Assembly: GCA_964431835.1 (NCBI GenBank)
Contig: CAYSKO010000003.1
Location: forward strand, 53,132-117,131
DNA length: 64,000 nucleotides
Direction of reading: 5' to 3'
Source of the DNA: an uncultured Planctomycetia bacterium
GTDB lineage: Bacteria > Omnitrophota > Gorgyraeia > 2-02-FULL-51-18
A program made the translations under genes and the position numbers. Below, piece by piece: positions 10,123-57,610 of the stretch; position 1 is the stretch's first letter; every line of letters begins with the position of its first letter. The notes under the pieces were generated by a model. The model ran no database searches. It saw nothing but the letters and a program-made list of their open reading frames with translations, and was not told where the DNA came from.

Positions 10123-10167
10123 GACGTCTCCTTTCGTGGACAACGCCTTTCGTTTGACAGCCTTTAC

Positions 10168-10692
10168 TTACTTCGTGACGTGCACTTCTTTGGAAGTCGA
10201 GATGTCCTGCGCGCCCACTTCCTTGAAGATGTCCTTCACGCGGTCGGCTTCCTGGTTGTTCTCGGCGTGGACCGAGATGAGGAAGTTCCCCTCGCGGACG
10301 CGTCCTTCGTAACGTTTGGCTTCGTACTCGGGAATGCCCATGCCGATAAGCGCACCGGCCACTCCGCCGACCGCCGCGCCGAGCGCCGCTCCGGAGAGCG
10401 CCGCCATGATCGGGCCGGCCGCGACGAACGGGCCGATGCCCGGGATCGCGAGCGTTCCGATGCCGGCCAGCCAGCCGACGACGCCGCCCAGCACCCCGCC
10501 GGGAAGCGCGCCGCGCACCGTGCCTTCGGGCGCTTTCGTGTGTTTTTCATGAGCGAAATCCTTCGTGCCGGTCTTATCGGGAAAGAGCACGGAGATATCG
10601 TCGTTCGAGAACCCTTCGTTCTTGAGCTGGCTGACAACGTCTTCGGCTTGGATCTCGGTCGTTGCGATGCAGAATACGGCTTGTTTGGACAT
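10168..10692 (-). CDS. general stress protein: YflT-like N-terminal domain plus glycine-zipper membrane segment (DUF1269-like)
   Basis: N-terminus VFCIATTEIQAEDVVSQLKNEGFSNDDISVLF resembles the YflT/GsiB-type domain. Central GxxxG zipper GGVLGGVVGWLAGIGTLAIPGIGPFVAAGPIMAALSGAALGAAVGGVAGALIGMG. Confidence 0.5.
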   Translation of the reverse strand: MSKQAVFCIATTEIQAEDVVSQLKNEGFSNDDISVLFPDKTGTKDFAHEKHTKAPEGTVRGALPGGVLGGVVGWLAGIGTLAIPGIGPFVAAGPIMAALSGAALGAAVGGVAGALIGMGIPEYEAKRYEGRVREGNFLISVHAENNQEADRVKDIFKEVGAQDISTSKEVHVTK

Positions 10693-10707
10693 GACTTTCT
10701 CCTGTTT

Positions 10708-11112
10708 TTAAGAGCGTTCGGTTTCGAGAAGGTCTTCGACTTGGCCGGGCGCCGCCGTTTCCGCGTGCCGGACGATGGCAGATCTTTCCGATTCGTTCAC
10801 ACGGCCCCGGAGCGTGACGCGGCCTCCGGCGGTGATGACCGCGGTATTTTTGGCGCCGAAAGAGATCGAGTCGTCCGCCATCAACGCCTTCCGGATCGTC
10901 TGGGTGATTCGGATATCGTCGGCGCTCTGCGACTGATCCTCAACCGTCGGCGCGTCGGGCATGTCGCCGGCGGGCGGCGCGACCGGTGAAGGCGTCGAAG
11001 AGACGGCAGCCGTTTCCGATGGGGGAGCGAGCGCGTCTTCCGCAAAAGCGGACGAGCAAATCGAAGCGGCCCCCACGAGAAGCGCGATACCGACAATCGA
11101 ACGAATGATCAT
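10708..11112 (-). CDS. BON-domain periplasmic protein (OsmY-like)
   Basis: ORF 10708..11388 trimmed to ATG 11112 (MIIRSIVGIALLVGAASICSSAFA signal peptide, GGAGG RBS). BON motif ITQTIRKALMADDSISFGAKNTAVITAGGRVTLRGRV. Confidence 0.7.
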   Translation of the reverse strand: MIIRSIVGIALLVGAASICSSAFAEDALAPPSETAAVSSTPSPVAPPAGDMPDAPTVEDQSQSADDIRITQTIRKALMADDSISFGAKNTAVITAGGRVTLRGRVNESERSAIVRHAETAAPGQVEDLLETERS

Positions 11113-13172
11113 TCCTTCCTCCCTTCCGTTACGGACGTTTGTGTGGCGGCCAAATCTTCCAGATCTTTGAGAGCCAAGTGGGAGCGAAGCACTTCGGCCA
11201 CGCTCCACGCCTGGGCGATGCAGGCACGTGGCGAGTACGGCGCGTCGCCGTCGAAAATTTCGCTGATACTGCCGACGCCTGCTTCCTTCAAATGCCCGTG
11301 AAAACTGTCCAGCATCTGGCGCGCTTTCACCCGGTCGCGATAGACGCGCATCCAGGCGTTCAGGAACGGTCCAATGAGCCACGCCCAAACCATGCCCTGG
11401 TGATAGGCGGCGTCTCGGGACCAGCGGTCGCCTTCGTAACGCGGGTGATATTCCTTGTTGCCCGGATCCAGCGTCCGGAGACCGTAGGGCGTCAAAAGCT
11501 TCTTCGCGACCGAATCGAGAACGGGCTTCCAGTACGAACGGTCGAGAACGGAATACCGGAGCGCCATGGTGAAGATCTGGTTCGGACGAAGCGCCGGGTC
11601 GTTCCCGCGTTCCCCGTCGATGAGATCGTAGAGATGCTGGCCCGGCTCGAACCAGAAACGCGCGTTAAACGAATCGAACACCTTCTTCGCGAGAGCCGTG
11701 TATTCGTCCGGCGACTCGCCGAACTCGCGCGACCAGGTCGCCATGAGTTTAAGTGCGTTGTACCACAGGGCCTGGATCTCCACGGGTTTGCCGCGGCGCG
11801 GGGTGACGACCCATTCGTCGACTTTCGCGTCCATCCACGTGAGCGCGAGACCTTCGGCCCCACCGCGCACTAGGCCGTCCCGGGGATCGACGTAAATGCC
11901 GAAATGAGTTCCACGCTGATGGTGCTCGATAACCGTCTTCAGGACCGGATAGAGCCCCTTCACCGTCTCCTTGTCGCCCGTCACCTGGTAATAACGGTCG
12001 ATCGCGTGGAAGAACCAGAAGGTCGCATCCATCGTGTTGTAGATCCCGGTGCGCTGGCCCTCCGGGAAATGATTCGGCAAAAGCCCGTCCTTCACGTAAT
12101 GCGCGAACGTCTGAAGAATGGCCTTCGCCTCGTAGTGGCGGCCCGTGCAGAGAGTAAGGCCTTCGAGGGAGATCATCGTGTCGCGGCCCCAGTCGGTGAA
12201 CCAGTGATAGCCGGCGATCACCGTGCGCAGACGCTCCCCCGACGCCCGGTAAAGGACGTTCTCGTCCGAGCGGGTCCAGGGGAGGACCACGAACTGGTCC
12301 GCGGCGATCGTAAGACGCGCCGCGAACGCGTCGGTCGACGCCCGCGGAGAAAGGGACAGTAGTTTTTCGAGACGTTTCCTTTCGGCTTCGAGAATTTTTT
12401 CGCAGTCGCACTCGAGCGCTTCCCACGGCTCGGTGCTCGCGACGAAGGAGACGTTCTCGCTCGGTTTCAGCTCGAATTCGAAGGCGCCGGGGCTGTAGAG
12501 ATTCGTCACCGAATCGTGGCCCCGGTCTTTTTCTACGCGGTAAAGCACGCCCGAAGAAATACGTTCGTCGATAGTGAACGCGCCGTTTTTCGGCTGCAAG
12601 CGCAAGCGGAGAGTCGGCGCGCCTTCGAAGGCGTGGATCTCGTAGCGGCCGCGAGTGACGTTCATCGAGAAAGGCCACTGCGGCGCGTAACCGAGCTGGC
12701 CGTCGTGCATGCGGCACGAAAGATAGGGACGCAGACGCGTGCGGATCGTCTTTCCGGAGACGAGCCGGTAGTTCACGTAGACGGTGTTCTGCCCGTACGG
12801 CATCACGATGCGTTTCTCGATCACGCGGCCCGCGACCGAGAACGTCCAGACGGGCGTTTGCCAATCGAGACGGAATTCGCTTAAGAAACGATGAGCGTCT
12901 CCCGAAATACGTCCGTCCGCGTGCTCGGCACCGGTCAGATCGAGCCAGCTTCCGTCCGCTTCTACGGAGTCGTCTAGGCGCGGAATCATCACGGTGCGGC
13001 CGCGCGGCGCGGGCAGATTCGGAATGAAAATGCCGTGGTAACGGCGCGTGCCCACGCCCCGGAGCGAAGCTGACGCGTACCCTCCGAGGCCATTCGTCAC
13101 GAGCCACTCTTTCGTGAGGAGCTCCGCGCCGTCGTTTTCGAAAGGACCGCTGTAGACGATCGGCTCGACCAT
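11109..13172 (-). CDS. amylo-alpha-1,6-glucosidase / glycogen debranching enzyme (GDE_C family)
   Basis: GDE motif GYHWFTDWGRDTMISLEGL with six-hairpin glycosidase core. ATG at 13172 overlaps the treZ stop (ATGA). The track start at 13175 is a TTG one codon upstream. Confidence 0.8.
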   Translation of the reverse strand: MVEPIVYSGPFENDGAELLTKEWLVTNGLGGYASASLRGVGTRRYHGIFIPNLPAPRGRTVMIPRLDDSVEADGSWLDLTGAEHADGRISGDAHRFLSEFRLDWQTPVWTFSVAGRVIEKRIVMPYGQNTVYVNYRLVSGKTIRTRLRPYLSCRMHDGQLGYAPQWPFSMNVTRGRYEIHAFEGAPTLRLRLQPKNGAFTIDERISSGVLYRVEKDRGHDSVTNLYSPGAFEFELKPSENVSFVASTEPWEALECDCEKILEAERKRLEKLLSLSPRASTDAFAARLTIAADQFVVLPWTRSDENVLYRASGERLRTVIAGYHWFTDWGRDTMISLEGLTLCTGRHYEAKAILQTFAHYVKDGLLPNHFPEGQRTGIYNTMDATFWFFHAIDRYYQVTGDKETVKGLYPVLKTVIEHHQRGTHFGIYVDPRDGLVRGGAEGLALTWMDAKVDEWVVTPRRGKPVEIQALWYNALKLMATWSREFGESPDEYTALAKKVFDSFNARFWFEPGQHLYDLIDGERGNDPALRPNQIFTMALRYSVLDRSYWKPVLDSVAKKLLTPYGLRTLDPGNKEYHPRYEGDRWSRDAAYHQGMVWAWLIGPFLNAWMRVYRDRVKARQMLDSFHGHLKEAGVGSISEIFDGDAPYSPRACIAQAWSVAEVLRSHLALKDLEDLAATQTSVTEGRKE

Positions 13173-15055
13173 CAAGAATCCTCCGATTCAGAACTGAAAA
13201 AGACGGCCGATGTGGCCGAAAGCTTCCAGCCCGCCGCGCCGCAGGGATTGACACTGCCCTGCCCTCCGAAACGCACCTCGTCGCTCGAAAACTTCATGCG
13301 CCACCGCATGCCCGCCGGCGGAGCCAGGAGCGGCTCGGAAGCGGGGGTCAGGTCGAAATCCCCGCCGAGATTCACGATGAGAAGCCGGTCCCCCTTTTCC
13401 TCACCTGCCCAGCGGAGAAGGAGACTTTGAGGACCCAGCACGGCGCCGTCGATCGCCAAACGGTCCTGCGCGGCGATGACCGCATCGTCACGGCGCAAGG
13501 CGAGAAGTTCGCGCTGATAGGCGTAAAGGCCCGCGTTGGAAAGGCGTTCGGAGAAATCGAGTCGGCACTTTTCGAACGTCGCGTCGACGTCGGGCGCATC
13601 GAGCGATCCCAGCGCTTCTGCGCCTGCGCAACTGGCAAATTGTTTCAGGAAGTCGCGCCGGCCGGCGCGAACCTTCGACGCCAGTTCCGCGTTGTGATCG
13701 GCGAAGAAAACGAACGGCGCCGACGCGCCGAACTCCTGACCCATGAAAAAAAGAGGGGTCCCGGGCCCAAGCAGAACGATAGCTGCCATCGCCCGGTAGC
13801 GCGCGAAACCCGACAGCGCGTACAGCCGTTCGCCGAACAGGCTGTTGGCGATCTGGTCGTGGTTGAGAAGATACGTGACGAACGCCTCGCCCTTTGCGAA
13901 AGGGACCGACGTTCCGCGGTTTTGTTTCTGCCAGGCGTAATACTGCCCCTGATACAGGAATCCGCGTTTGACCGCGGAGATGATTTCCTGCGGGGTGCCG
14001 GTATAATCCGTGTAATACGCTTCGCGTTTGCCTGTCAGCGCGACGCGGGCCGAATGGTGGAAGTCGTCGTTCCAGACGCCGTCCAATCCGAACCCTCCGT
14101 CCTCGACAGGCAGGATGCACCGCGCGTCGTTGGGCTCGTTCTCGGCCACGATCAAGATCGTGCGGGCCGCGGCCGATTCGCGCGCGAGCCCCGCGAGCTC
14201 CACGATGACGTGAACCGGACCATCGTCGTAGATATTCTGCGTCGCGTCGAGCCGCAAGCCGTCTAAATGATACTCGGCGATCCAATAGGCGGCGTTTCGC
14301 ACGAAAAATTCGCGGACCGGTGTCGAATTCGGGCCGTCGTAATTGATCGCATCGCCCCAGTCGGTCGTGTGACGCTTCGAAAAATAATCGTCCGAATACT
14401 GTCCGAGATAATTGCCGTCGGGGCCGATGTGGTTGTAGACGACGTCGTGGATGACACCCAAGCCTTTGGCGTGCGCGGCGTCGACGAGGCGCTTCAAACC
14501 CTCCGGTCCGCCGTAGACATGTGCCGGTGCGTAGAGCCCCACTCCGTCGTATCCCCAGTTCCAGCGGCCGGGGAATTCCGTGAGCGGCATGAGCTCGATC
14601 GACGTGACGCCGAACGCCTTCAGCTCGTCGAGCTCGCCGATGACGGCATCGAACGTGCCTTCGTGCGTGAACGATCCGACATGGAGTTCGTAAAAAACCT
14701 GGCCTTTCATTCGGAGCCCGCGCCACCCGGCGTCGGTCCATCTGAAAACGTCCGGATCGACTACTGCCGAAGGACCGTGCGGGCCGTCCGGTTGCCAGCG
14801 GGAGCACGGATCGGGAAACGCGTCGCCTCCGTCCAACCGATAACGGTAGCGCGATCCGGCGCGCGCTTCGGGAACCGTTCCGGAAAAATAACCGCCGTCT
14901 TCGGGGGCGAGCGGATAGGCACGCTTCGTATCTTCGAGAACGACCTCGATGGACCGCCGCTTCGGCGCCCAGATCCTGAAAAAGACGCCGTCGGGACGCG
15001 CTTCCGCCCCGAGACCCATCTTCCAGCCCGTTCGTCCGCTGACCGCCGAAGTCAT
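13172..15055 (-). CDS. treZ: malto-oligosyltrehalose trehalohydrolase
   Basis: GH13 TreZ N-terminus VFFRIWAP…YRYRLDGGDAFPDPCSRWQPDGPHGPSAVVD. Catalytic motifs GLRLDATQNI and VAENEPND. Confidence 0.85.
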   Translation of the reverse strand: MTSAVSGRTGWKMGLGAEARPDGVFFRIWAPKRRSIEVVLEDTKRAYPLAPEDGGYFSGTVPEARAGSRYRYRLDGGDAFPDPCSRWQPDGPHGPSAVVDPDVFRWTDAGWRGLRMKGQVFYELHVGSFTHEGTFDAVIGELDELKAFGVTSIELMPLTEFPGRWNWGYDGVGLYAPAHVYGGPEGLKRLVDAAHAKGLGVIHDVVYNHIGPDGNYLGQYSDDYFSKRHTTDWGDAINYDGPNSTPVREFFVRNAAYWIAEYHLDGLRLDATQNIYDDGPVHVIVELAGLARESAAARTILIVAENEPNDARCILPVEDGGFGLDGVWNDDFHHSARVALTGKREAYYTDYTGTPQEIISAVKRGFLYQGQYYAWQKQNRGTSVPFAKGEAFVTYLLNHDQIANSLFGERLYALSGFARYRAMAAIVLLGPGTPLFFMGQEFGASAPFVFFADHNAELASKVRAGRRDFLKQFASCAGAEALGSLDAPDVDATFEKCRLDFSERLSNAGLYAYQRELLALRRDDAVIAAQDRLAIDGAVLGPQSLLLRWAGEEKGDRLLIVNLGGDFDLTPASEPLLAPPAGMRWRMKFSSDEVRFGGQGSVNPCGAAGWKLSATSAVFFSSESEDS

Positions 15056-15062
15056 GCGCTCT

Positions 15063-15218
15063 TCACCTCTCGCCTTCGGCGCTTCCGGGCGTGCGGCCGG
15101 CTTCCTCGAATCGGCCGCGGTCGGCGCCAGCTTCCTTGCCTTCGGCGCTTCCGGGCGTGCGGCCAGGCTCTTCGAATCTTTCGGTGCGTTTGGACGGCTT
15201 TTTGTTTTTCTTTTTCAT
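15063..15218 (-). CDS. small hydrophilic Lys/Glu/Gly-rich protein (51 aa) with internal peptide repeat; hydrophilin-like candidate
   Basis: Inside spurious ORF 15063..15584. ATG 15218 preceded by GAGGAG at 6-nt spacing. MKKKNKKPSKRTERFEEPGRTPGSAEGKEAGADRGRFEEAGRTPGSAEGER, encoded by a 2 x ~67-bp tandem DNA repeat. Stop lies 8 nt before the treZ start. Confidence 0.4.
   Translation of the reverse strand: MKKKNKKPSKRTERFEEPGRTPGSAEGKEAGADRGRFEEAGRTPGSAEGER
15071..15200. repeat. tandem direct repeat, 2 copies of ~67 bp; the first 27 nt (CCTTCGGCGCTTCCGGGCGTGCGGCC) are identical, the remainder diverged
   Basis: Read from the sequence at 15071-15137 and 15138-15200. Lies within the small ORF above. 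Confidence 0.7.
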
Positions 15219-15307: not shown

Positions 15308-15832
15308 TTAGTCGGGGGCGCCGTCGGTGGCGGAACCGGGGGCGCTTTCGGCCATGAGGCCGGTTTCGCGGATCGTCCGATTCTGGATTTCGAGCGTGTG
15401 CATGCGGTCGTGCGCTGCTTTGATGAACTCGTGCTGACGCTCCACGACGTCCCTCACTTCGATGGGAAGATCCCCCTTCAAAGCTTCCGCGTACGTCCTC
15501 ACTGCCGCGTCCTCGCCGCGTTCGCATTCCTCGACCACAGCTCCTTCGTCGTGTCCCTGAGCGGCGGTACGCAGCTTGAACCATCCGCGGTGGGCCGCGC
15601 CGGCGGCGGTCCCCGCTCCGCCCGTTTTGCCGCCCAGGCGTTCGATCTCGCGGTCCAGTTCGTCGGCGAATTGGGCACGCTGTTCTGCGTAAGTCGAAAA
15701 AAGCTTATGGAGCGAATCGTGTCTGCTTTTCTCGGCGGCCATGCGGTAGCCCAGCTCGCCGTCACGGCAGATGGAAAAGAGGTCTTTCAAAACGACGAGC
15801 AGATTTTTGGAATCACCGGCGGGGTCGACCAT
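15308..15832 (-). CDS. PA2169-family four-helix-bundle protein (DUF2383, ferritin-like stress protein)
   Basis: 174 aa with the characteristic pattern LKDLFSICRDGELGYRMAAEKS…AVRTYAEALKGDLP…VVERQHEFIKAAHDRM. Confidence 0.7.
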   Translation of the reverse strand: MVDPAGDSKNLLVVLKDLFSICRDGELGYRMAAEKSRHDSLHKLFSTYAEQRAQFADELDREIERLGGKTGGAGTAAGAAHRGWFKLRTAAQGHDEGAVVEECERGEDAAVRTYAEALKGDLPIEVRDVVERQHEFIKAAHDRMHTLEIQNRTIRETGLMAESAPGSATDGAPD

Positions 15833-15865
15833 GGCGCCTCCTTGGAAGTCTTGTGCGTACAGATA

Positions 15866-15921
15866 GTTATACGCCTAGAGCGATTAAAATATGGTTAAAA
15901 TGAAATTAGAACTTTTTAATC
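15866..15921 (-). promoter_or_regulatory. copy A of the 55-bp AT-rich stress element (promoter/operator candidate for the DUF2383 gene)
   Basis: TTATACGCCTAGAGCGATTAAAATATGGTTAAAATGAAATTAGAACTTTTTAATC on the plus strand. The egtD stop codon (TGA 15920-22) is embedded in the TTTTTAATC arm. On the coding strand TATAAC lies 33 nt before the ATG. Confidence 0.5.
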
Positions 15922-16894
15922 AAGCGTTCGTGAGGAAAAATAAGCCGAAATACTCGTTTTCGTCGGTCCACACTTCCTCGAGCTCAAGATCCGCGGCCAG
16001 CGCCAGACGCCGGAATCCGTCCACGTCGTATTTGTGACAGCGTTCCGTCAATATCGATTCCCCTTGTCCGAACCGGAACGTCTCCCCGTCGATCGTCGCG
16101 ATCTGCTCGCACGCACTCACCAGCCGCATCTCCACACGGCCTTCGCCCTCCGCGTAGACGGCCTCGTGCCGGAAATTATCCACGCGAATATCGCCGCCCA
16201 GCTCCCGGTTGATGCGAACGAGCAAATTCAGATTGAATGCGGACGTCAGCCCCTCTCGGTCGTCGTAAGCGCGCTCTAGAATCTCCCGCGGTTTCTTTAA
16301 GTCCACTCCGATGAGCAGGCCACCATTTGGATGGCAAAGCCTCGATATTTTCTCGAGAAGCTCGCGGGCTTGGGACGGTTCGAAGTTGCCGATCGTGGAA
16401 CCGGGGAAATAAACGATTTTGCGCGTCACGTAGCCGCCACACGGCGGTAGCGCGTAGAAATCGACAAAGTCGGCGAACACCGGGCAGACGTCGAGTCCCG
16501 GATAGGCGGTCGCAAAGCGCCGGGCCGTCTCGACCAGCGCGCCGCGGGCGATGTCGATCGGGACATAGCCGGCGGGAGACTGCATGCGGTCGAGAAGAAG
16601 CCGGGTCTTTCTCCCGGAACCGCTGCCGTATTCCACGAGCAGGCAGTCGGTCCCCATTCGCCCAACGATGTCGTCGATGTTCTCGCGCATGATCTTCGTC
16701 TCCACGCGACCGACGTAATAATCGGGGGTGTCGACGATGCGCTCGAAGAGCCACGACCCGCGTTCGTCGTAGAAATACTTGCACGGCAACTCTTTCTTCG
16801 GAAGGCGCAGACCGGCTAGAACTTCCTCCTTGAACGTCGTCTCCGGAGGAGAGAAATCGTATAACCGGGGCCCTTCGGTCTCCACGCGCATCAT
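15920..16894 (-). CDS. egtD: L-histidine N-alpha-methyltransferase (ergothioneine biosynthesis)
   Basis: YFYDERGSWLFERI, LLVEYGSGSGRKT, and the DUF2260 methyltransferase fold throughout. Confidence 0.85.
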   Translation of the reverse strand: MMRVETEGPRLYDFSPPETTFKEEVLAGLRLPKKELPCKYFYDERGSWLFERIVDTPDYYVGRVETKIMRENIDDIVGRMGTDCLLVEYGSGSGRKTRLLLDRMQSPAGYVPIDIARGALVETARRFATAYPGLDVCPVFADFVDFYALPPCGGYVTRKIVYFPGSTIGNFEPSQARELLEKISRLCHPNGGLLIGVDLKKPREILERAYDDREGLTSAFNLNLLVRINRELGGDIRVDNFRHEAVYAEGEGRVEMRLVSACEQIATIDGETFRFGQGESILTERCHKYDVDGFRRLALAADLELEEVWTDENEYFGLFFLTNA

Positions 16895-18165
16895 GAGCGG
16901 GCGTCCCGGGCGAGCCGGATGCCGGAAAACTGCCAGCGGTCCGACGGGCGGAAAAAATTACGGTACGAGACACGGATGTGGGAGCGCGGCGTCGCGCACG
17001 AGCCTCCGCGGAGAACCATGCGGTTCGACATGAATTTGCCGTTGTACTCCCCGAGCGCTCCGTCGGCTGGACGGAACCCCGGATAGGGAGCGTACGCGCT
17101 CGAGGTCCATTCCCAGACATCGCCGAAAAGCTGGGCGATCCCGCGGCCCCCGGGGGCGCGACGCGGACGGAGCCGCCCGGTTTCGAGAAAATTTCCTACG
17201 ATGCGTTCGGGACCCGCGGCGTATTCCCACTCAAATTCGGTCGGCAGGCGTGCGCCGCTCCACCGCGCGTAGGCGTCGGCTTCGTAAAAACTCACGTGGC
17301 AAACCGGCTCTTCGGGATCTACCGGACGCATCCCCTCCAAAGTGAAATGCCGCCAATCGCGCCCGTGACGCTCCCAGTACAGCGGGGCTTCCCATGTGTG
17401 GGTGCGCACTTCATCCCATCCGTCGGAAAGCCAGAGCTCCGGCCTGCGGTACCCGCCATCTTCGATGAACGCGGCGAATTCGCCGCACGTGGTCGGGCGC
17501 TCGGCCAAAAGAAATTCTTCGCAGCGGACACGGTGCCGCGGGGTCTCGTTATCGTAGGAAAAACCGCTCCCCGAGTGCCCCGCCTCCGTCTCCGCGGCGG
17601 GATACGCGCGCCAGCGCGCAGGCGTCCCGGCGGCCAGCTCCGCTTCTTCTTCGTCCGGCAAACGGTAGGCCGGCCGAAGCGGGTTCGACCCGAAGAGATG
17701 TTTCACGTCCGTCAGAAGGAGTTCCTGGTGCTGTTCCTCGTGATGGAGGCCCGTTTCGACGAGCCGTTCGAGCTCGGAGTCCGCGCCCGTGCCGATGAGC
17801 GCTTCCATTCGCGCGTCGACTGCGGCGCGGTAGCGCATCACTTCCGCGAGCGGCGGACGCGAAAGCAAACCGCGTTCTGCGCGCGGCTGACGTGGGCCGA
17901 GCGTTTCGTAGTACGAATTGAACAGATAGGCGTATTTGGGGTGGAACGGGCGGTGGCCTGAAACGAAAGGAGCGAGAACGAGAGTCTCAAAAAACCACGC
18001 CGTGTGTCCCAGATGCCATTTGACGGGACTCGCGTCGGGCATGGACTGGAGCGCGCAATCCTCGGCGCTCAGCGCCGAGGCGAGGGCCTCCGTGCGGGAG
18101 CGGACCTCCTTATAACGCGACACCAGGAGAAAATCGCAGGTGCGGGCATGCACGGTCGCGGCCAT
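16891..18165 (-). CDS. egtB: ergothioneine biosynthesis sulfoxide synthase EgtB (DinB_2 + FGE-sulfatase domains)
   Basis: DinB_2 N-domain HLGHTAWFFETLVL…HHEEQHQELLLTDV, then an FGE-type C-domain. Stop overlaps the egtD start (ATGA). Confidence 0.85.
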   Translation of the reverse strand: MAATVHARTCDFLLVSRYKEVRSRTEALASALSAEDCALQSMPDASPVKWHLGHTAWFFETLVLAPFVSGHRPFHPKYAYLFNSYYETLGPRQPRAERGLLSRPPLAEVMRYRAAVDARMEALIGTGADSELERLVETGLHHEEQHQELLLTDVKHLFGSNPLRPAYRLPDEEEAELAAGTPARWRAYPAAETEAGHSGSGFSYDNETPRHRVRCEEFLLAERPTTCGEFAAFIEDGGYRRPELWLSDGWDEVRTHTWEAPLYWERHGRDWRHFTLEGMRPVDPEEPVCHVSFYEADAYARWSGARLPTEFEWEYAAGPERIVGNFLETGRLRPRRAPGGRGIAQLFGDVWEWTSSAYAPYPGFRPADGALGEYNGKFMSNRMVLRGGSCATPRSHIRVSYRNFFRPSDRWQFSGIRLARDARS

Positions 18166-18192
18166 AGGGACCCCCAGATTGATATCCTTCTC

Positions 18193-18247
18193 TTATACGC
18201 GCCTGGCGATTAAAAGGGGGTTAGATTTGGATTAAAAGTTTTTAATC
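18193..18247 (-). promoter_or_regulatory. copy B of the 55-bp AT-rich stress element (upstream of egtB)
   Basis: TTATACGCGCCTGGCGATTAAAAGGGGGTTAGATTTGGATTAAAAGTTTTTAATC. The stop (TAA 18242-44) of the upstream 825-aa gene is embedded in the TTTTTAATC arm. TATAAG lies 26 nt before the egtB ATG on the coding strand. Confidence 0.5.
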
Positions 18248-20719
18248 GCGGGTTCTTTCGCGGGATTCTTTTTCGATCTCCCGCCGGCCGGTCTTGGGAT
18301 CCGTCCGCATCACCCACGCACGGGACGAAAGCGGAAGGCCGTCCAAGCTCGGTGCGTCCTCCTCGGGGACGTGGATGTCGACGACGAGGGGCCAGTGGTC
18401 TGACGATTGCCGGTCGAGCGAAGTCGTGGGGACGCGGATGCCGGTCACTTGGATGCGCGGGCCGACGAACACGTGGTCGATCCGCCCGAGCCCCATCCAC
18501 GTGTTCTGCGGACGGTGCGCGTTGAGATGAAGCTGCGTGTCGCGCAAAACCGAACCGATCTTGCGGTAAGCCGGAGACGTCGGCAGCGCATTAAAATCGC
18601 CGCACAGGACGACCGGCCCCGAACACGCCGAATTCGCGAGCCAGTCGGCGCCGGAGAGCGCCTCCGCCTGGAGCAAACGCTCGGCGGGCCAAATGCTCAG
18701 GTGGGAATTGATAAGCTGTAGCTTGGTGAACCCGATGTCGATCGCGACCCACATAGCCCCGCGCGGCTCGAGATCTTTGCGCAGCTGCGGAAGCGGCGCG
18801 ACTTTCACGAGGTACATCGGGAAACGCGAGAGGATCGCGTTTCCGTACTGGCCGTCCTCGATGAGGAAGGTCGGGTGGAAATGAAACGTCATGTCGAGCC
18901 GCCGGGCGATCTGTTCGACTTGGTCCACGCAGCCCGAGCGCGAGCGGCCGACGTCGAGCTCTTGTAGCGTGACGACGTCGGCGTCGTGCCGCGCGATCAC
19001 GCGCGCGATACGTTCGGGCGAGCATTTTCCGTCGAGGCCCACGCAGCCGTGCACGTTGTATGTCATGATCCGGACGGTACGGAGCGACGCAGGGCGGAAC
19101 GCGCGTTTCACGCGGCCGTCCGAGCGGCCGAGCACGCGGAGCGCGGCTTCCCGGATATGCGCGGGCCGGAGATAGGGCTTTTCGAGCGGCGGGAGTGGCG
19201 CGTCCGACGTCAAAAGCGCGAAGCCGTGCGTCTCCTGCGGTCCCGCCCCGGCGTGGCTGCCGTGTTCGAGCGGGAAACTGGACGACTGCGCTCCGTGACG
19301 CCAGCCGAGAATGATGAAGTCGCCTGCGTCGGGGTGATGAGCGAGAGCGGCGACGTCCCGCGCGGCTTCTTCGAGAAAAGGATGATCTGGTCCGAGGAGC
19401 CGCGCGGCATCGGCGGGCAAAGAAAAACGGCCGTCTTCGGTCCATACGAGCGCTTCTTCAGGCCGGCTCGGCAGCATCACCGCGGGCACGCCCAGACGAG
19501 CGGGCATCTCGGACGCGAAGCGTTCTTTGTCGCACGCGTCCATCTCGCCCGGCACGTAGACGTGCGCGATCGGACCCATCGCGGTCACGATCACGCGCGA
19601 AGGGGTCAGGCTTTCGTCGGCCGGCTCTTCCCCCGGGCGCGAGTCGAGCGCGTGCGACTCGAGAAGACCGGCCCCGGATTCCCAATGCGAAAGAGGCCCC
19701 GGATCGTCCGAATGGACGCGCTTGCCGAAAAATTCCGCGACCGCGGCCTCGAGCGAGCGACCGTTCTTCTGCGTATAGGAGTGGGCGTTTTCCTGGCCGT
19801 GATCGGAATAAACCCAAACGTCGTAATGGCGCTGCGCCGAGCGGTGGGCCGATCTCCACACGCGCCCGATCGCGTCGTCGATGCCGCGGAGCGACCAATG
19901 CGCGAACTTGGAAGTGGGCCCGCGCCGGTGCGACTGCTCGTCGTACCCGAGAAGATTCAAATGAATGACCGGCAGGCCGCGCGCGACGTCGATCGTCGCG
20001 CCTGCGATCACGAGCTCCCGCAGAAGCACGCAGACCGCCACGCGTGTCGGGACGAATTCGAGCTCCTTCCAAAAACGTTTACCCGCGAACGTTCCGCGTA
20101 CGCAGTCGATCGTGGCAAGGACGAACTCGATCACCATGAGAATCGCGGTGCGCAAGAGAATGTCGAAATAAAGCACCATCAGAATCGGAAGGACGAGCGG
20201 ATTCGGAGCGCAGAAAAGGGCCTTCCAGCCGATTTTCGCCGCGCAGAAGCGCGCGTCTTTCGCTCCCCCGGTGAACACGTTCGAATAGGAGCTGCCTTCG
20301 GCGAGGAGACCGGGAGCAACCTTCTCGAGTCGCCGTTCGACTTCGCTTGCCGACGCGGTGTCGTACATTTTGAATATGCGGCCGCTTTTTCGGTCGAGGT
20401 AGCTGAAGGCGGGCACGCAACTTTTGACGCCGTAGAAGATTTCCCCCTGGACGGAGGGCGTGTTGGAAGGCATGCCGGAATAATGGGAGTGGAGCGTGTA
20501 GTTTTCGTGATCGACGAGCCGCTTGAGGAACGGCATATCGTGCGCAGAGAGAGCGCGCGTCAGCTGCGGGCGGGAAAGACCGTCGATCTGGACCATGACG
20601 AGGCCCGGCGTCGTCGGCGAAGCGTTCGCGCGGGAAAGACCGAGAAGACGAATGGCCCACTCGCTCCGGCTGAAGACGCGACGGAACACCCGGACGACCC
20701 GGCTCAGTTTAAATACCAT
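18242..20719 (-). CDS. membrane-associated bifunctional phosphoesterase: N-terminal alkaline-phosphatase-superfamily (type I phosphodiesterase/nucleotide pyrophosphatase-like) domain, TM segments, C-terminal endonuclease/exonuclease/phosphatase (EEP) domain
   Basis: N-terminal MVQIDGLSRPQLT…HYSGMPSNTPSVQ (AP-superfamily metal site). Hydrophobic helices around residues 170-230. C-terminal EEP signature RIMTYNVHGCVGLDGK…VVTLQELD…GDFNALPTSPAY…SDHWPLVVDI. Confidence 0.6.
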   Translation of the reverse strand: MVFKLSRVVRVFRRVFSRSEWAIRLLGLSRANASPTTPGLVMVQIDGLSRPQLTRALSAHDMPFLKRLVDHENYTLHSHYSGMPSNTPSVQGEIFYGVKSCVPAFSYLDRKSGRIFKMYDTASASEVERRLEKVAPGLLAEGSSYSNVFTGGAKDARFCAAKIGWKALFCAPNPLVLPILMVLYFDILLRTAILMVIEFVLATIDCVRGTFAGKRFWKELEFVPTRVAVCVLLRELVIAGATIDVARGLPVIHLNLLGYDEQSHRRGPTSKFAHWSLRGIDDAIGRVWRSAHRSAQRHYDVWVYSDHGQENAHSYTQKNGRSLEAAVAEFFGKRVHSDDPGPLSHWESGAGLLESHALDSRPGEEPADESLTPSRVIVTAMGPIAHVYVPGEMDACDKERFASEMPARLGVPAVMLPSRPEEALVWTEDGRFSLPADAARLLGPDHPFLEEAARDVAALAHHPDAGDFIILGWRHGAQSSSFPLEHGSHAGAGPQETHGFALLTSDAPLPPLEKPYLRPAHIREAALRVLGRSDGRVKRAFRPASLRTVRIMTYNVHGCVGLDGKCSPERIARVIARHDADVVTLQELDVGRSRSGCVDQVEQIARRLDMTFHFHPTFLIEDGQYGNAILSRFPMYLVKVAPLPQLRKDLEPRGAMWVAIDIGFTKLQLINSHLSIWPAERLLQAEALSGADWLANSACSGPVVLCGDFNALPTSPAYRKIGSVLRDTQLHLNAHRPQNTWMGLGRIDHVFVGPRIQVTGIRVPTTSLDRQSSDHWPLVVDIHVPEEDAPSLDGLPLSSRAWVMRTDPKTGRREIEKESRERTRD

Positions 20720-20846: not shown

Positions 20847-20956
20847 GGGGTTGGCGGTCCTCCTCAGAACCGGTCGGGAATGACTCGGGCTTAACGTTTT
20901 TTTAAAGCGGGGCGAAACCCTCCGTAGACCCCCGGATCGATCCTGCCCAGAGAACG

Positions 20957-21010
20957 TTATAGCGCGGACGTAATTAAAGAGGCCTTAAATTAAGATTAGA
21001 AGTTTTTAAC
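20957..21010 (-). promoter_or_regulatory. copy C of the 55-bp AT-rich stress element (upstream of small ORF + phosphoesterase)
   Basis: TTATAGCGCGGACGTAATTAAAGAGGCCTTAAATTAAGATTAGAAGTTTTTAAC. TATAAC lies ~108 nt before the small-ORF ATG on the coding strand. Confidence 0.4.
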
Positions 21011-21149
21011 CCTGTCGGTGACTCCGATTGGAGCCACGAGCGAGCACTTCCACGCTCTAGGGAAATTCGCGTTCATCGCGATCTTGTTGCGGGAGTAAAG
21101 CCGCGCGTCGCGGCACTTTTGGAAAGCGAGGCGGGGGATTTGGGCGCCC

Positions 21150-27910: not shown

Positions 27911-27974
27911 GGTTACCGGCCTTTCGTGGGGAGCGGTGCTTTGAGAGGCGGACGGAGTCCGTCCCTTCACTTGG

Positions 27975-28030
27975 TTATAGACCCCAAGTGATTAAAGACC
28001 GATTAAATTCCGATTAAAAAATTTTAATCC
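27975..28030 (-). promoter_or_regulatory. copy D of the 55-bp AT-rich stress element (upstream of the CBS-Gfo-FAD/Rieske-GH-GT4 operon)
   Basis: TTATAGACCCCAAGTGATTAAAGACCGATTAAATTCCGATTAAAAAATTTTAATC, with three GATTAAA direct repeats at ~13-bp spacing. The rlmN stop (TAA 28024-26) is embedded in the TTTTAATC arm. TATAAC lies 63 nt before the CBS ATG. Confidence 0.5.
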
Positions 28031-37130: not shown

Positions 37131-37176
37131 AAAAAACCGCCCGCACCGGGGTTCCCGGTGCGGGCGGCTCTTTTTT
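37131..37176. terminator. bidirectional Rho-independent terminator (nuoN plus-strand / treT operon minus-strand)
   Basis: AAAAAACCGCCCGCACCGGGGTTCCCGGTGCGGGCGGCTCTTTTTT: a 13-bp GC stem flanked by an A-run and a T-run. Confidence 0.8.
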
Positions 37177-38422: not shown

Positions 38423-39083
38423 GGGTGGCCTCCTCCTTGAGACGCTTCTCGACGAGGAGGAGGATACGCTGGCGCAGGCCCTCCATCGTCTGGGTATAGG
38501 GGTCGAGCTTGTCGATCTGTCGGGCGAGTTCGTGCTCGCCGTTGTGGTTCAGCCAGTCCGAGAAATCGTTCACGCCGAGGGGTTGGCGCAGGCGCCCAGT
38601 GAAGATGTGGTAATAGAGCGAGCTGATCGTCACCTTCCGCAGGCAGTCCCGGAATTCTGCGAGGTTGCGCGCCACGAGCTCCGTCGGCAGGTCGAAGAGG
38701 ATCGATTTCATGAAATGAAACTCTTCTCCGGGCGGGCACTCGCGCACGGTAGGATTCTCGTGCAGGAACCGGTCGATGGCGCCCGCGATCGCGGTCCGCA
38801 GGTCTTCGAGCGAATCGAAGCGCACGGTGTCGATCGCGGCCAAGCGCTCGCCCATCCTGTCTTCCTGAAGAACGTTCGTCGTCCAGAATGCAAAATCGTT
38901 CGGCGGCTCCGGGGTCAGGAACTGGTGCTGCTGCAGGAAATGGTGCGTGTGGTAGTACACCGACGATTCGGGCACCACCGAGAGATGGTCCCGCAGCTCC
39001 CGCAGGTTCTTCGCCTTGAGCCCCGTCAGCATGACGAGACTGAGCTGGGTCTTGAAATAGAAGGGTTTTTCCGCCTTTAACAT
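38409..39083 (-). CDS. hypothetical protein co-transcribed between otsB and treT
   Basis: ORF 38409..39515 trimmed to ATG 39083 (MLKAEKPFYFKTQLSLVMLTGLKAKNLRELRDHLSV…); the upstream part is Arg-rich and overlaps otsB. 224 aa, no recognised motif. Overlaps the treT start by 14 nt. Confidence 0.5.
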   Translation of the reverse strand: MLKAEKPFYFKTQLSLVMLTGLKAKNLRELRDHLSVVPESSVYYHTHHFLQQHQFLTPEPPNDFAFWTTNVLQEDRMGERLAAIDTVRFDSLEDLRTAIAGAIDRFLHENPTVRECPPGEEFHFMKSILFDLPTELVARNLAEFRDCLRKVTISSLYYHIFTGRLRQPLGVNDFSDWLNHNGEHELARQIDKLDPYTQTMEGLRQRILLLVEKRLKEEATHVTA

Positions 39084-43340: not shown

Positions 43341-43376
43341 AAAAGGCGGGGAGGGGTCTCCCCCTCCCCGCCAGAC
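43341..43376 (-). terminator. Rho-independent terminator after glnK
   Basis: GGCGGGAGGGGG-tct-CCCCCTCCCCGCC, a 12-13-bp G/C stem. A T-run follows on the minus strand (A-run 43341-45 on the plus strand). Confidence 0.75.
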
Positions 43377-57462: not shown

Positions 57463-57499
57463 AATGATCTCCGTAAAAGAACGGTCTTTGTGAATACAG

Positions 57500-57610
57500 G
57501 ATAGCGCTGGAGGAATTAGAGAACGGTTAGATTGGGATTAAAAGTTTCTAAGCTCTTAAGGGGCTATCGAGAAAACGGATTAGAGCGGGATTAGATTATT
57601 TTAAGGATTT
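57500..57610 (-). promoter_or_regulatory. copy E of the AT-rich stress element plus three extra GGATTAGA(T) direct repeats
   Basis: GATAGCGCTGGAGGAATTAGAGAACGGTTAGATTGGGATTAAAAGTTTCTAAG…ACGGATTAGAGCGGGATTAGATTATTTTAAGGATTTT. The histidine-kinase stop (TAA 57601-03) lies inside the element. TATCCT-like -10 sits 34 nt before the TTG start at 57462. Confidence 0.45.

What the first reader, a model, noticed from the sequence alone, without database searches (positions are those of the whole stretch)
11109..15218. Three independent trehalose biosynthesis routes plus osmoprotection genes concentrated in one window
The TreY/TreZ route is represented by treZ (13172-15055), immediately followed by a GDE-family debranching enzyme (11109-13172); treY is not seen here. 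The OtsA-OtsB pathway (39077-42120) and the TreT glycosyl-transferring synthase (37187-38422) are both present too. These sit alongside MscS, BON/OsmY-like, YflT-like, ElaB/YqjD-YqjE, PA2169-family, CBS and ergothioneine genes. That is a striking density of desiccation and osmotic-stress functions, and several carry the shared AT-rich upstream element.
Basis: established knowledge. Interest (0 to 1): 0.5.

Follow-up and report, generated by a model that had tools for sequence, protein, structure and literature searches.

The report
Two trehalose operons in stress island
The trehalose and stress genes are real, but they form two conserved operons rather than three independent pathways; one operon encodes a trehalose-phosphate synthase fused to a membrane sensor, and the other sits behind a repeated promoter element shared with four other stress units.

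Summary
"Three independent routes" does not hold.

OtsA, OtsB and TreT lie in one terminator-bounded operon: mscS-otsA-otsB-orfY(DUF5752)-treT, 37187-43256, minus strand. DUF5752 is followed directly by treT in 78 of 80 metagenome loci, usually with otsB and otsA upstream. DUF5752 matches the solved OrfY protein of Thermoproteus tenax.

This OtsA has a 272-residue N-terminal module: TM, Cache/PDC sensor, TM, HAMP-like helices. Its fold matches the input module of the kinase WalK. The long form recurs in more than 100 homologues. I found no description of it in the papers I could search.

treZ has no treY within 64 kb, so that route is incomplete here. treZ is coupled to a GH133 debranching enzyme, as in 55 of 75 informative GTDB loci. 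Both lie in a likely stress operon: PA2169-sORF-treZ-GDE-BON-YflT.

The AT-rich element is real. It has five copies, none in shuffles or in 2.1 Mb of other loci. It consists of TTTAATC heptads phased at 11 bp, ending 10 bp before a TATAAC box. It precedes the treZ unit, egtBD, a CBS unit and two others, but not the otsA-treT operon.

The gene families are known. The fusion, the cassette and the element are new variants.

The parts
43345..43372 (-). Strong intrinsic terminator (12-bp GC stem plus T run) that ends the upstream glnB-amt unit. The mscS operon therefore starts afresh. A TGATATAAT extended -10 motif lies about 40 nt before the mscS ATG.
42153..43256 (-). MscS-family mechanosensitive channel, first gene of the trehalose operon
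   Evidence: Pfam MS_channel_1st/2nd/3rd. 61% identical to the syntenic gene in Eisenbacteria MAG locus L083.
39850..42120 (-). Long-form OtsA (756 aa). Residues 1-272 form the TM1 - Cache/PDC - TM2 - HAMP-like input module; residues 277-739 form the GT20 trehalose-6-phosphate synthase domain.
   Evidence: PF00982, E 4e-117. More than 100 homologues align at 95-100% coverage, nearly all at 97-99%. AF2 models.
41305..42120 (-). The part of otsA that encodes the N-terminal sensor module (aa 1-272)
   Evidence: A profile of this region hits the WalK extracellular domain 5is1 at E 2.4e-4. Foldseek top hit is the full-length WalK model 9a5d (E 1.4e-10, 268 columns), followed by WalK, KinD, Tlp3, DcuS, CitA and DctB sensor domains. 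191 representative clusters match at E<=1e-30, and 39 of the 49 hits of at least 300 aa run on into GT20.
39077..39847 (-). OtsB trehalose-6-phosphate phosphatase. Its start overlaps the otsA stop.
   Evidence: PF02358; TIGR00685 at 131 bits against a cutoff of 68
38409..39083 (-). OrfY/DUF5752 protein (224 aa). It overlaps the otsB stop and the treT start.
   Evidence: PF19027, E 7e-68. A family profile hits PDB 4cso 'ORFY PROTEIN, TRANSCRIPTION FACTOR' at E 2.3e-30 over the full length. It is followed by treT in 78 of 80 metagenome loci.
37187..38422 (-). TreT-family trehalose synthase (GT4), last gene of the operon
   Evidence: PF21269 plus PF00534. PDB 6zj4 at E 8e-120 and 2x6q at E 3e-96.
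37137..37167 (.). Bidirectional intrinsic terminator (14-bp stem, T runs on both strands) between treT and nuoN
15861..15922 (-). AT-rich promoter/operator element, copy 1: GATTAAAAA-GT-TCTAATT-N4-TTTAACC-N4-TTTAATC-N10-TATAAC
15308..15832 (-). PA2169-family four-helix-bundle protein (DUF2383), first gene after element copy 1
   Evidence: TIGR02284 at 115 bits against a cutoff of 45
15063..15218 (-). Small ORF of 51 aa, highly charged, with the internal repeat RFEE[PA]GRTPGSAEG. It is called as a gene on two independent contigs.
13172..15055 (-). TreZ, malto-oligosyltrehalose trehalohydrolase (GH13 with CBM48)
11109..13175 (-). GH133 archaeal-type glycogen debranching enzyme (amylo-alpha-1,6-glucosidase domain)
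   Evidence: It lies directly downstream of treZ in 55 of 75 GTDB loci that have room for it.
10708..11112 (-). Secreted BON-domain protein (134 aa). Its ATG overlaps the GDE stop.
10168..10692 (-). YflT/DUF1269-like general-stress protein
18187..18248 (-). AT-rich element, copy 2, upstream of egtB-egtD
15920..18165 (-). egtB (16891-18165) and egtD (15920-16894), ergothioneine synthesis
   Evidence: TIGR03440 at 575 bits against a cutoff of 360; TIGR03438 at 362 bits against a cutoff of 291
20951..21012 (-). AT-rich element, copy 3, upstream of a 45-aa ORF and the 825-aa phosphodiesterase/EEP protein (18242-20719)
27969..28030 (-). AT-rich element, copy 4 (three perfect TTTAATC heptads). It lies upstream of CBS (27464-27970), GFO/IDH/MocA oxidoreductase (26322-27467), DAO+Rieske oxidoreductase (24781-26307), a 759-aa unknown protein (22439-24718) and a GT4 (21150-22430).
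57493..57554 (-). AT-rich element, copy 5 (box is TATCCT). It lies upstream of an SPW-repeat membrane protein (57070-57462), an SRPBCC protein (56578-57057) and a 168-aa secreted protein (56002-56508).
46567..47324 (-). ElaB/YqjD-like tail-anchored protein (46986-47324) and YqjE-like membrane protein (46567-47061). HMM support is weak and neither carries the AT-rich element.

Best explanation
The window comes from an uncultivated bacterium whose closest available relative is a Candidatus Eisenbacteria MAG. It carries two trehalose modules under different control.

Module A (37187-43256, minus strand) is one operon bounded by terminators: mscS-otsA-otsB-orfY-treT.
- OtsA and OtsB make trehalose from NDP-glucose and glucose-6-phosphate.
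- TreT, of the OrfY-linked Thermoproteus type, makes trehalose from NDP-glucose and free glucose.
- MscS releases solutes on osmotic downshift.
- OtsA is built like a sensor kinase whose kinase core has been replaced by the GT20 catalytic domain (TM1, extracytoplasmic Cache/PDC domain, TM2, HAMP-like helices, conserved linker helix). I infer that trehalose-6-phosphate synthesis is switched after translation by a membrane or periplasmic cue, and that the operon itself is read from an ordinary extended -10 promoter.

Module B (about 10015-15922, minus strand) is a stress operon: PA2169, a 51-aa ORF, treZ, GH133 debranching enzyme, BON, YflT.
- The GH133 enzyme would trim glycogen branches, and TreZ would release trehalose from maltooligosyltrehalose.
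- That requires a TreY encoded elsewhere in the genome.

Module B and four other units (egtBD, EEP phosphodiesterase, CBS-oxidoreductases-759aa-GT4, SPW-SRPBCC) share a promoter. It has three TyTAAyC heptads at 11-bp spacing and an upstream inverted copy, and the last heptad ends 10 bp before a TATAAC -10 box. This is the geometry of promoters that depend on OmpR/PhoB-type response regulators, so I infer a dedicated stress regulon driven by such a regulator.

Shown: gene identities, gene order, conservation of the pairs and the cassette, the sensor fold, and the non-random presence of the element. Inferred: co-transcription, the regulatory logic, the direction of TreT, and the existence of TreY.
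For: Operon A:
- Start and stop codons overlap or lie within 33 bp of each other.
- Strong terminators flank the operon at 43345-43372 and 37137-37167.
- The Eisenbacteria MAG locus L083 is syntenic: PDH E1-E2-E3 ... MscS-OtsA-OtsB-DUF5752.
- DUF5752 is followed by TreT in 78 of 80 metagenome loci. OtsB lies directly upstream in 48 of the 58 loci that have room.
- DUF5752 equals OrfY, PDB 4cso.
- TreT scores 403 bits against Thermoproteus uzoniensis TreT and 326 bits against Pyrococcus TreT.
- Precedent: the T. tenax msc-gt-tpsp operon, together with the unidirectional TreT of the same organism (PMC3634074).

Sensor module:
- Homologues align over nearly the full length, at 95-100% coverage.
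- AF2 gives pLDDT 84 for the module, with a helix - five-strand alpha/beta domain - long helices topology.
- Sequence profile and Foldseek matches go to WalK and other Cache/PDC sensors.
- The module is tied to GT20 in the representative library.

Operon B:
- GDE overlaps the treZ stop, and the BON ATG overlaps the GDE stop.
- No terminator-like site lies in the gaps between PA2169 and YflT.
- treZ-GDE adjacency occurs in 55 of 75 loci across many phyla. Three loci have treZ-GDE together with treY nearby.

Element:
- Five copies, all on the gene strand. The -10-like box lies about 20 to 110 nt upstream of the first start codon, except at the CBS unit, where the first possible start lies only 4 nt downstream and the true start is probably later.
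- None in shuffles and none in 2.1 Mb of other loci.
Against: - No transcript data exist, so both operons are inferred from spacing and terminators.
- An 89-nt gap between PA2169 and the small ORF could hold an internal promoter.
- Pfam HAMP does not hit the OtsA linker at E<0.05. The N-terminal module could be only a membrane anchor.
- 12 of 29 complete cassette OtsAs are short forms that lack the module, so it is dispensable for the cassette.
- OtsA scores below the NCBIfam OtsA equivalog cutoff: 426 bits against 565.
- TreY was not found and the rest of the genome could not be searched.
- No DNA-binding response regulator was identified in the window.
- The element is absent from the closest relative's loci, so its regulon cannot be cross-checked.
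- The unidirectionality of OrfY-linked TreT rests on my recollection of Kouril et al. 2008, which could not be read here.
Confidence: 0.6

Rival explanations
1. One reading: three independent trehalose synthesis routes (TreY/TreZ, OtsA/OtsB, TreT) that give redundancy and are co-induced with other osmoprotection genes through the shared AT-rich element.
For: All three enzyme families are present and well supported. Several trehalose pathways in one genome are common (own knowledge). The element does precede the unit that contains treZ.
Against: OtsAB and TreT share one operon and one conserved cassette. That operon lacks the element. treY is missing from the window.
Confidence: 0.15
2. The treZ-GDE pair is a glycogen or maltodextrin degradation module that works without TreY. 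The TreZ-like GH13 enzyme acts as a glucan hydrolase, or as a transferase paired with the GH133 glucosidase as in eukaryote-style indirect debranching. On this reading it is not a trehalose route.
For: The pair is conserved in 55 of 75 loci. treY lies within 9-10 kb in only 5 of 45 fully flanked loci. GH133 is the glucosidase half of eukaryotic debranching enzyme. A GH133 mutant of Sulfolobus accumulates glycogen (PMC11046441).
Against: TreZ exceeds the curated TreZ equivalog cutoff. It matches two characterised TreZ structures at E about 1e-120 with the catalytic motifs intact. TreZ proteins from loci with an adjacent treY are as similar to it (about 51-54% identity) as those from loci without one. 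Loci L051, L064 and L070 combine treZ-GDE with treY.
Confidence: 0.2
3. TreT in the cassette runs in reverse. After stress it converts trehalose plus NDP back to NDP-glucose and glucose, so the operon couples synthesis (OtsAB) with recycling (TreT) and emergency release (MscS).
For: TreT enzymes of Thermococcus and Pyrococcus are reversible (own knowledge). Some long-form otsA-otsB operons carry a GH15 trehalase in the position that orfY-treT occupies here, which suggests a degradative slot.
Against: The protein is closer to the Thermoproteus type. It has the OrfY partner that marks the unidirectional cluster (Kouril 2008 from memory; PMC3634074 calls the T. tenax TreT pathway unidirectional).
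Confidence: 0.2
4. The AT-rich element is a dispersed repeat (a REP- or MITE-like sequence or a recombination site) with no role in transcription.
For: It is lineage-specific, with no copy in 2.1 Mb of other loci. No regulator was identified.
Against: All five copies are intergenic and on the same strand as the downstream gene, and each ends in a -10-like hexamer at a fixed distance of 10 bp. At four of the five copies the next start codon lies about 20-110 nt downstream; the CBS copy is the exception. The copies share only the phased heptads and not their flanks. No terminal inverted repeats or target duplications were seen.
Confidence: 0.07

Closest known systems
Thermoproteus tenax trehalose systems: the msc-gt-tpsp operon (Zaparty et al. 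2013, PMC3634074) and the orfY-treT cluster (Kouril et al. 2008; OrfY structure PDB 4cso)
   Same: A mechanosensitive channel gene is co-transcribed with trehalose-6-phosphate synthase and phosphatase functions and a GT4 glycosyltransferase. An OrfY/DUF5752 gene lies directly upstream of TreT. Both the OtsAB-type and the TreT-type routes occur in one organism.
   Different: Here the two archaeal clusters are merged into a single bacterial operon. TPS and TPP are separate genes, not a fused TPSP. The GT4 is TreT itself, not the PimA-like activator GT. OtsA also carries a transmembrane sensor module that the archaeal enzyme lacks.
Transmembrane sensor histidine kinases of the WalK/DcuS/CitA type (TM - Cache/PDC - TM - HAMP input module)
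   Same: The topology and predicted fold of OtsA residues 1-272 match. Foldseek aligns 268 columns to full-length WalK and also matches Cache/PDC sensor domains.
   Different: The output is a GT20 glycosyltransferase, not a DHp/CA kinase core. Sequence identity to WalK is only 13-16%. Pfam HAMP is not detected.
Canonical bacterial glgX(treX)-treY-treZ operon (Mycobacterium, Corynebacterium, Bradyrhizobium, Sulfolobus)
   Same: A TreZ orthologue is coupled to a glycogen debranching function.
   Different: The debranching partner is a GH133 (GDE_N/GDE_C) enzyme, not GH13 GlgX/TreX. treY is not adjacent. The pair is embedded among general-stress genes (PA2169, BON, YflT).
PhoB/OmpR/ArcA-type response-regulator operators (7-bp direct repeats with 11-bp phasing; the pho box lies 10 bp upstream of the -10 hexamer)
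   Same: Three tandem heptads with 11-bp periodicity. The last heptad lies 10 bp from a -10-like box, and there is no recognisable -35 hexamer.
   Different: The heptad sequence (TTTAATC) matches none of the known boxes I am aware of. An additional inverted copy lies upstream. The regulator is unknown, and the comparison is from memory, not a tested match.

Membership tests
TreZ (malto-oligosyltrehalose trehalohydrolase, GH13, TIGR02402) | Score above the curated equivalog cutoff | tested here: met
   610 bits against a cutoff of 538.8
TreZ (malto-oligosyltrehalose trehalohydrolase, GH13, TIGR02402) | GH13 catalytic Asp/Glu/Asp motifs and similarity to characterised TreZ | tested here: met
   RLDA, AENE and NHD align with S. 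solfataricus TreZ 1eh9 (E 3e-123) and D. radiodurans 2bhu (E 9e-120)
TreY/TreZ pathway | A TreY (maltooligosyltrehalose synthase) gene in the same genome | tested here: not met
   tblastn with a TreY sequence finds no hit in the 64-kb window. The rest of the genome could not be searched.
TreT (trehalose glycosyltransferring synthase, GT4) | TreT-specific N-terminal domain plus GT1/GT4 C-terminal domain, and full-length similarity to solved TreT | tested here: met
   PF21269 at E 5e-52 and PF00534. 6zj4 at E 8e-120 and 2x6q at E 3e-96 over residues 5-401.
TreT (trehalose glycosyltransferring synthase, GT4) | NCBIfam equivalog NF041139 (Thermococcales TreT) cutoff | tested here: not met
   349 bits against a cutoff of 775. 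That model is order-specific, so this excludes only the Thermococcales subfamily.
Unidirectional TreT / OrfY cluster (Kouril 2008) | An orfY homologue immediately upstream of treT | tested here: met
   DUF5752 at 38409-39083 overlaps the treT start. The family profile hits OrfY 4cso at E 2.3e-30. The pair is conserved in 78 of 80 loci.
Unidirectional TreT / OrfY cluster (Kouril 2008) | The enzyme forms trehalose but does not cleave it | not testable with these tools
   Needs an enzyme assay
OtsA (trehalose-6-phosphate synthase, GT20) | GT20 domain with the catalytic DGMNLVAKE motif, and an adjacent OtsB | tested here: met
   PF00982 at E 4e-117. The motif is invariant in alignment A2. OtsB TIGR00685 is above its cutoff and the gene is overlapping.
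OtsA (trehalose-6-phosphate synthase, GT20) | NCBIfam equivalog TIGR02400 cutoff | tested here: not met
   425.7 bits against a cutoff of 564.85. Substrate specificity within GT20 is therefore inferred from context.
GH133 / archaeal-type glycogen debranching enzyme | GDE_N plus GDE_C domains, and the TIGR01561 cutoff | tested here: met
   PF12439 at E 8e-59, PF06202 at E 1e-131, and TIGR01561 at 408 bits against 364. The C-terminal domain matches the glucosidase domain of eukaryotic GDE.
Cache/PDC extracytoplasmic sensor plus HAMP input module | Two TM helices flanking an alpha/beta PDC fold | tested here: met
   AF2 model with pLDDT 84. Foldseek matches WalK, KinD, Tlp3, DcuS, CitA and DctB. 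The profile hits the WalK extracellular domain at E 2.4e-4.
Cache/PDC extracytoplasmic sensor plus HAMP input module | Recognisable HAMP domain by sequence | tested here: not met
   No Pfam HAMP hit at E<0.05. There are only two predicted helices with a P...G...E pattern, and the region aligns with WalK through its HAMP.
T. tenax-type trehalose synthase complex operon (msc-gt-tpsp) | MscS gene co-oriented and contiguous with the TPS/TPP genes and a GT4 | tested here: met
   mscS-otsA-otsB-orfY-treT, with gaps of 33 bp or less
T. tenax-type trehalose synthase complex operon (msc-gt-tpsp) | Fused TPSP protein activated by the GT | tested here: not met
   OtsA and OtsB are separate ORFs. Activation by the GT cannot be tested here.
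OmpR/PhoB-type response-regulator-dependent promoter | Tandem direct repeats with 11-bp periodicity that replace the -35 region, about 10 bp from the -10 hexamer | tested here: met
   Alignment of the five copies
OmpR/PhoB-type response-regulator-dependent promoter | A cognate winged-helix regulator that binds the repeats | not testable with these tools
   The window holds only a stand-alone receiver (49134-49583) and a PAS/GAF histidine kinase (57601-61140)

The most novel reading that the evidence does not exclude
The long-form OtsA is a true transmembrane receptor-enzyme. An extracytoplasmic Cache domain and a HAMP-like transducer directly gate trehalose-6-phosphate synthase activity, making a one-protein osmotic or envelope-stress sensor and effector. 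OrfY/DUF5752 is the adaptor that physically couples this enzyme, OtsB and TreT into a membrane-associated trehalose synthase complex next to the MscS release valve. Separately, the TTTAATC-heptad promoter would define a previously unknown general-stress regulon in this lineage, the closest available relative of which is a Candidatus Eisenbacteria MAG.
Probability: 0.3. Interest if true: 0.7.

Novelty: new variant of a known kind. Interest (0 to 1): 0.45.

Why it matters
How bacteria decide within seconds to make a compatible solute is mostly explained by transcription and by ionic activation of soluble enzymes. A widespread trehalose-6-phosphate synthase wired to a kinase-type membrane sensor would be a direct, testable route from an envelope signal to solute synthesis. 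At least 191 clusters at 50% identity carry the module.

The conserved otsA-otsB-orfY-treT(-mscS) cassette gives OrfY/DUF5752 a concrete functional context. OrfY has a solved structure but no known function. The cassette also suggests that the OtsAB and TreT routes work together rather than redundantly.

The recurrent treZ-GH133 pair suggests that many bacteria use a eukaryote/archaeon-type debranching enzyme, instead of GlgX, to feed glycogen into trehalose.

The five-copy heptad promoter offers a handle on stress regulation in a phylum with no cultured model.

None of this overturns current knowledge. As originally stated, the finding (many trehalose and stress genes close together) is ordinary.

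Tried and rejected
- Rfam gathering-threshold scan of the whole window gave no RNA family, so no riboswitch or sRNA explains the intergenic elements.
- The sigma-70 consensus scan found no canonical promoter in 9800-22600 and only one non-significant hit in 36900-45400.
- I searched 2.1 Mb of fetched loci for the heptad element, including the closest relative's contigs. None was found, so the regulon could not be extended by comparison.
- An exact-sequence look-up of OtsA found no recorded contig. The taxonomic placement therefore rests on 70% identity and synteny with one Eisenbacteria MAG.
- Literature searches for DUF5752, OrfY with T. tenax, GH133 with trehalohydrolase, and membrane or HAMP forms of trehalose-6-phosphate synthase found nothing on the cassette, the treZ-GH133 pair or the sensor fusion. 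Kouril 2008 is not held.
- The AFDB Foldseek library was unavailable.
- The 759-aa protein gave no Pfam, NCBIfam or PDB match.
- I considered an ECF-sigma promoter for the element and rejected it. The 10-bp gap between the last heptad and the TATAAC box is too short for a -35/-10 pair.
- My first GC3-based gene call missed or mis-stranded several genes: the GT4, DUF5752, BON, DAO/Rieske, pyrophosphatase, receiver, TonB and MarC genes. These were corrected.

Full report
OBSERVATION

The window is about 62% GC. I called genes by ORF length and GC3 and corrected the calls with gene predictions on identical public contigs and further ORF sweeps.

- TreZ, 13172-15055 (minus strand): passes the curated TreZ equivalog model, 610 bits against a cutoff of 539. 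It matches the solved TreZ enzymes of Sulfolobus and Deinococcus at E about 1e-120, with the three GH13 catalytic motifs aligned.
- GDE, 11109-13175: overlaps the treZ stop by 4 nt. It has GDE_N and GDE_C domains, passes TIGR01561, and matches the glucosidase (GH133) domain of eukaryotic debranching enzymes.
- OtsA (39850-42120), OtsB (39077-39847), TreT (37187-38422) and MscS (42153-43256): confirmed.
- Also confirmed: PA2169, EgtB/EgtD, a CBS pair, a CNNM-CBS protein, a YflT-like protein and a BON protein at 10708-11112.
- The ElaB-like and YqjE-like calls have only weak HMM support.

tblastn with a TreY and a GlgX taken from related loci finds neither in the window.

SOURCE

Identical proteins occur on Logan, JGI and NCBI metagenome contigs, the longest 148,875 bp, without an organism name.

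The nearest named relative is a Candidatus Eisenbacteria MAG (GCA_035496715.1). Its OtsA is 70% identical. Its contig is syntenic with the window from the pyruvate dehydrogenase genes through MscS-OtsA-OtsB-DUF5752. The best GTDB TreZ is only 61% identical.

MODULE A: ONE OPERON, NOT TWO ROUTES

On the minus strand the genes run mscS, otsA, otsB, a 224-aa ORF, then treT. The gaps are 33 bp or less, or the genes overlap.

A 12-bp GC hairpin with a T run separates the operon from the upstream glnB-amt genes. A 14-bp bidirectional terminator follows treT. A TGATATAAT extended -10 motif lies about 40 nt before mscS.

The 224-aa ORF is DUF5752 (E 7e-68).
- In a metagenome scan with a DUF5752 alignment, 78 of 80 loci have treT immediately downstream. 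The other two are cut by contig ends.
- otsB lies directly upstream in 48 of the 58 loci that have room, with otsA before it.
- An MscS gene is nearby in about a dozen loci.
- An Elusimicrobiota genome has DUF5752-treT beside treZ-treY-glgX.

A profile of the family matches PDB 4cso, "OrfY protein, transcription factor", over its full length at E 2.3e-30. From memory, OrfY is the ORF upstream of the unidirectional TreT of Thermoproteus tenax (Kouril et al. 2008). I could not read that paper here. Zaparty et al. cite it and call the T. tenax TreT pathway unidirectional.

The window's TreT scores higher against Thermoproteus uzoniensis TreT (403 bits) than against the reversible Pyrococcus enzyme (326 bits).

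T. tenax also offers the closest precedent for the channel. Its msc-gt-tpsp operon encodes a GT4 that activates the fused synthase/phosphatase by forming a complex with it. In the window the two archaeal clusters appear merged into one bacterial operon.

THE SENSOR-FUSED OtsA

The GT20 domain starts only at residue 277 of 756. The extension is not a start-codon artefact. The 120 best homologues, from Eisenbacteria, Omnitrophota, Kiritimatiellia and Nitrospirota MAGs, are mostly 740-780 aa long and nearly all align over 97-99% of the query.

The sequence shows two hydrophobic helices, near residues 5-25 and 163-190, followed by a P...G...E helix-connector-helix and an invariant EEEARLR...WTPERLKEF linker.

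AlphaFold2 on the N-terminal 272 residues gives pLDDT 84. The topology is a long helix, a five-strand alpha/beta domain, and then long helices.

A sequence profile of the module hits the WalK extracellular domain at E 2.4e-4, as well as a GGDEF/EAL sensor and KinD. Foldseek's best match is a full-length WalK model at E 1.4e-10 over 268 columns. WalK, KinD, Tlp3, DcuS, CitA and DctB sensor domains follow.

Pfam does not call HAMP, so I describe the linker as HAMP-like.

Against 1.84 billion representative proteins, the module profile finds 191 clusters at E<=1e-30 and 844 at E<=1e-10. Of the 49 listed hits of at least 300 aa, 39 continue into GT20. The remaining ten show no GT20 match; all are under about 355 aa, so they probably end too close to the junction for one to be detected.

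Within the DUF5752 cassette, 16 of 29 complete OtsA genes are long and 12 are short.

I found no paper that describes this architecture.

The inference, unproven, is that the module gates synthase activity in response to a membrane or periplasmic cue.

MODULE B: treZ IN A STRESS OPERON

Downstream of the first AT-rich element lie these genes, in order:
- PA2169.
- A 51-aa charged ORF with an internal repeat.
- treZ.
- GDE.
- A secreted BON protein, whose ATG overlaps the GDE stop.
- A YflT-like protein.
- A 35-aa membrane peptide.

No terminator-like site lies in the intergenic gaps.

Among 80 GTDB loci that encode the closest TreZ relatives, 55 of the 75 with room have a GH133 gene immediately downstream. 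They span Myxococcota, Acidobacteriota, Verrucomicrobiota, Chlamydiota, Planctomycetota, Gemmatimonadota, Geomonas and Methylophilus.

treY is present in only 6 of the 80 loci, and in 5 of the 45 with at least 9 kb on both sides. glgX is present in 9. Three loci combine treZ-GDE with a nearby treY.

I read this as GH133 taking the debranching role that GlgX/TreX plays in the classical operon (pathway described in PMC11046441), with treY elsewhere in the genome. A TreY-independent glycogen-degrading role cannot be excluded, because whole genomes could not be searched.

THE AT-RICH ELEMENT

The five copies lie at 15861-15922, 18187-18248, 20951-21012, 27969-28030 and 57493-57554, all on the minus strand. 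They share the pattern [GATTAAAA]-N3-TyTAATC-N4-TyTAAyC-N4-TTTAATy-N10-TATAAC.

Thirty Markov shuffles of the window gave no triple-heptad match. 164 other loci, 2.1 Mb in all, gave none.

Each copy is intergenic and co-oriented with the next gene. At four copies the -10-like box lies about 20-110 nt before the start codon. At the CBS copy the first possible start lies only 4 nt after the box, so the true start is probably further downstream.

The units served are:
- PA2169-...-treZ-GDE-BON-YflT.
- egtB-egtD.
- A 45-aa ORF plus an 825-aa phosphodiesterase/EEP protein.
- CBS, GFO oxidoreductase, DAO/Rieske oxidoreductase, a 759-aa unknown protein and a GT4.
- An SPW membrane protein, an SRPBCC protein and a 168-aa secreted protein.

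Four of the five units are consecutive on the minus strand across roughly 10.0-28.0 kb, so this stretch is a co-regulated island.

The 11-bp phasing, the lack of a -35 hexamer and the 10-bp distance to the -10 box resemble pho-box and ArcA-type operators. That comparison is from memory. I therefore favour a winged-helix response regulator as the regulator, but none was identified.

The otsA-treT operon and the ElaB-like genes do not carry the element.

VERDICT

The enzymes are members of known families, and several trehalose pathways in one genome are well known. Three things are new in degree:
1. OtsAB and TreT are tied together by OrfY in a widely conserved cassette, here with MscS.
2. A large subfamily of OtsA carries a kinase-type transmembrane sensor module.
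3. treZ is habitually paired with a GH133 debranching enzyme, and here sits behind a lineage-specific heptad-repeat stress promoter.

I rate this as a new variant of known kinds, of moderate interest.

Noticed in passing
window 22439-24718 (-) and 21150-22430 (-): A 759-aa protein has no Pfam, NCBIfam or PDB match. It nevertheless has more than 4600 homologues at 54-66% identity and near-full coverage in Omnitrophica, Methylobacter, other Gamma- and Deltaproteobacteria MAGs, and some are fused to a GtrA domain. It is followed after 8 bp by a GT4 glycosyltransferase. Both lie in the CBS-led unit behind AT-rich element copy 4. This may be another glycoside or solute pathway.
   Followed up: partly
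window 15063-15218 (-): A 51-aa, highly charged ORF lies between PA2169 and treZ. It has the internal repeat RFEE[PA]GRTPGSAEG and is called as a gene on two independent contigs. It has no family match and may be a hydrophilin-like stress peptide.
   Followed up: partly
window 8399-8546: The AT-rich intergenic region between the TonB-dependent receptor (6278-8398, -) and the divergent region holds two palindromes of the form TTGAGA-N6-TCTCAA: ATTGAGATATATTCTCAAAT and ATTGAGACCAAGTCTCAATA. They look like an operator for a metal or other repressor and are unrelated to the heptad element.
   Followed up: no
window 57570-57600 and 48590-48615: Partial copies of the heptad element occur here. Two CTAATCC repeats lie right at the stop of the PAS/GAF histidine kinase gene, just upstream of full copy 5. 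One TCTAATC lies after the DUF488 gene and upstream of the NAD-kinase-like gene.
   Followed up: partly
L032, L044, L053, L055, L059, L069, L077 (Chthoniobacterales/Verrucomicrobia loci), about 500 bp after GDE: In these genomes treZ-GDE is followed directly by an MscS-like channel gene and preceded by a PHP-domain/GT4 fusion protein. This is a second, independent association of a trehalose module with a mechanosensitive channel.
   Followed up: partly
L084/L085 (Omnitrophota) 8001-12911; L086 (Eisenbacteria MAG): Long-form otsA-otsB is followed in Omnitrophota by a GH15 trehalase (TREH_N plus Glyco_hydro_15) in place of orfY-treT. The Eisenbacteria MAG has a second long-form otsA-otsB paralogue without orfY-treT.
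   Followed up: no
alignment A1 of DUF5752 (window 38409-39083): DUF5752/OrfY looks like an internal duplication of a unit of about 90 aa (S-x-YYH ... NDF[AS]xW ... LGExxLA ... D). The first half has an invariant His-rich motif, HTHHFLQQHQ...EPPNDFAYW. The PDB title calls the protein a transcription factor, but its fixed position between otsB and treT suggests a partner of the enzymes.
   Followed up: partly
window 49134-49583 (-) and 57601-61140 (-): A stand-alone receiver protein lies next to the PDH genes, and the same arrangement occurs in the Eisenbacteria MAG. The window also has a 1179-aa CheR_N-PASx5-GAF-HisKA-HATPase kinase. No DNA-binding regulator lies in the window that could be assigned to the heptad element.
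   Followed up: no
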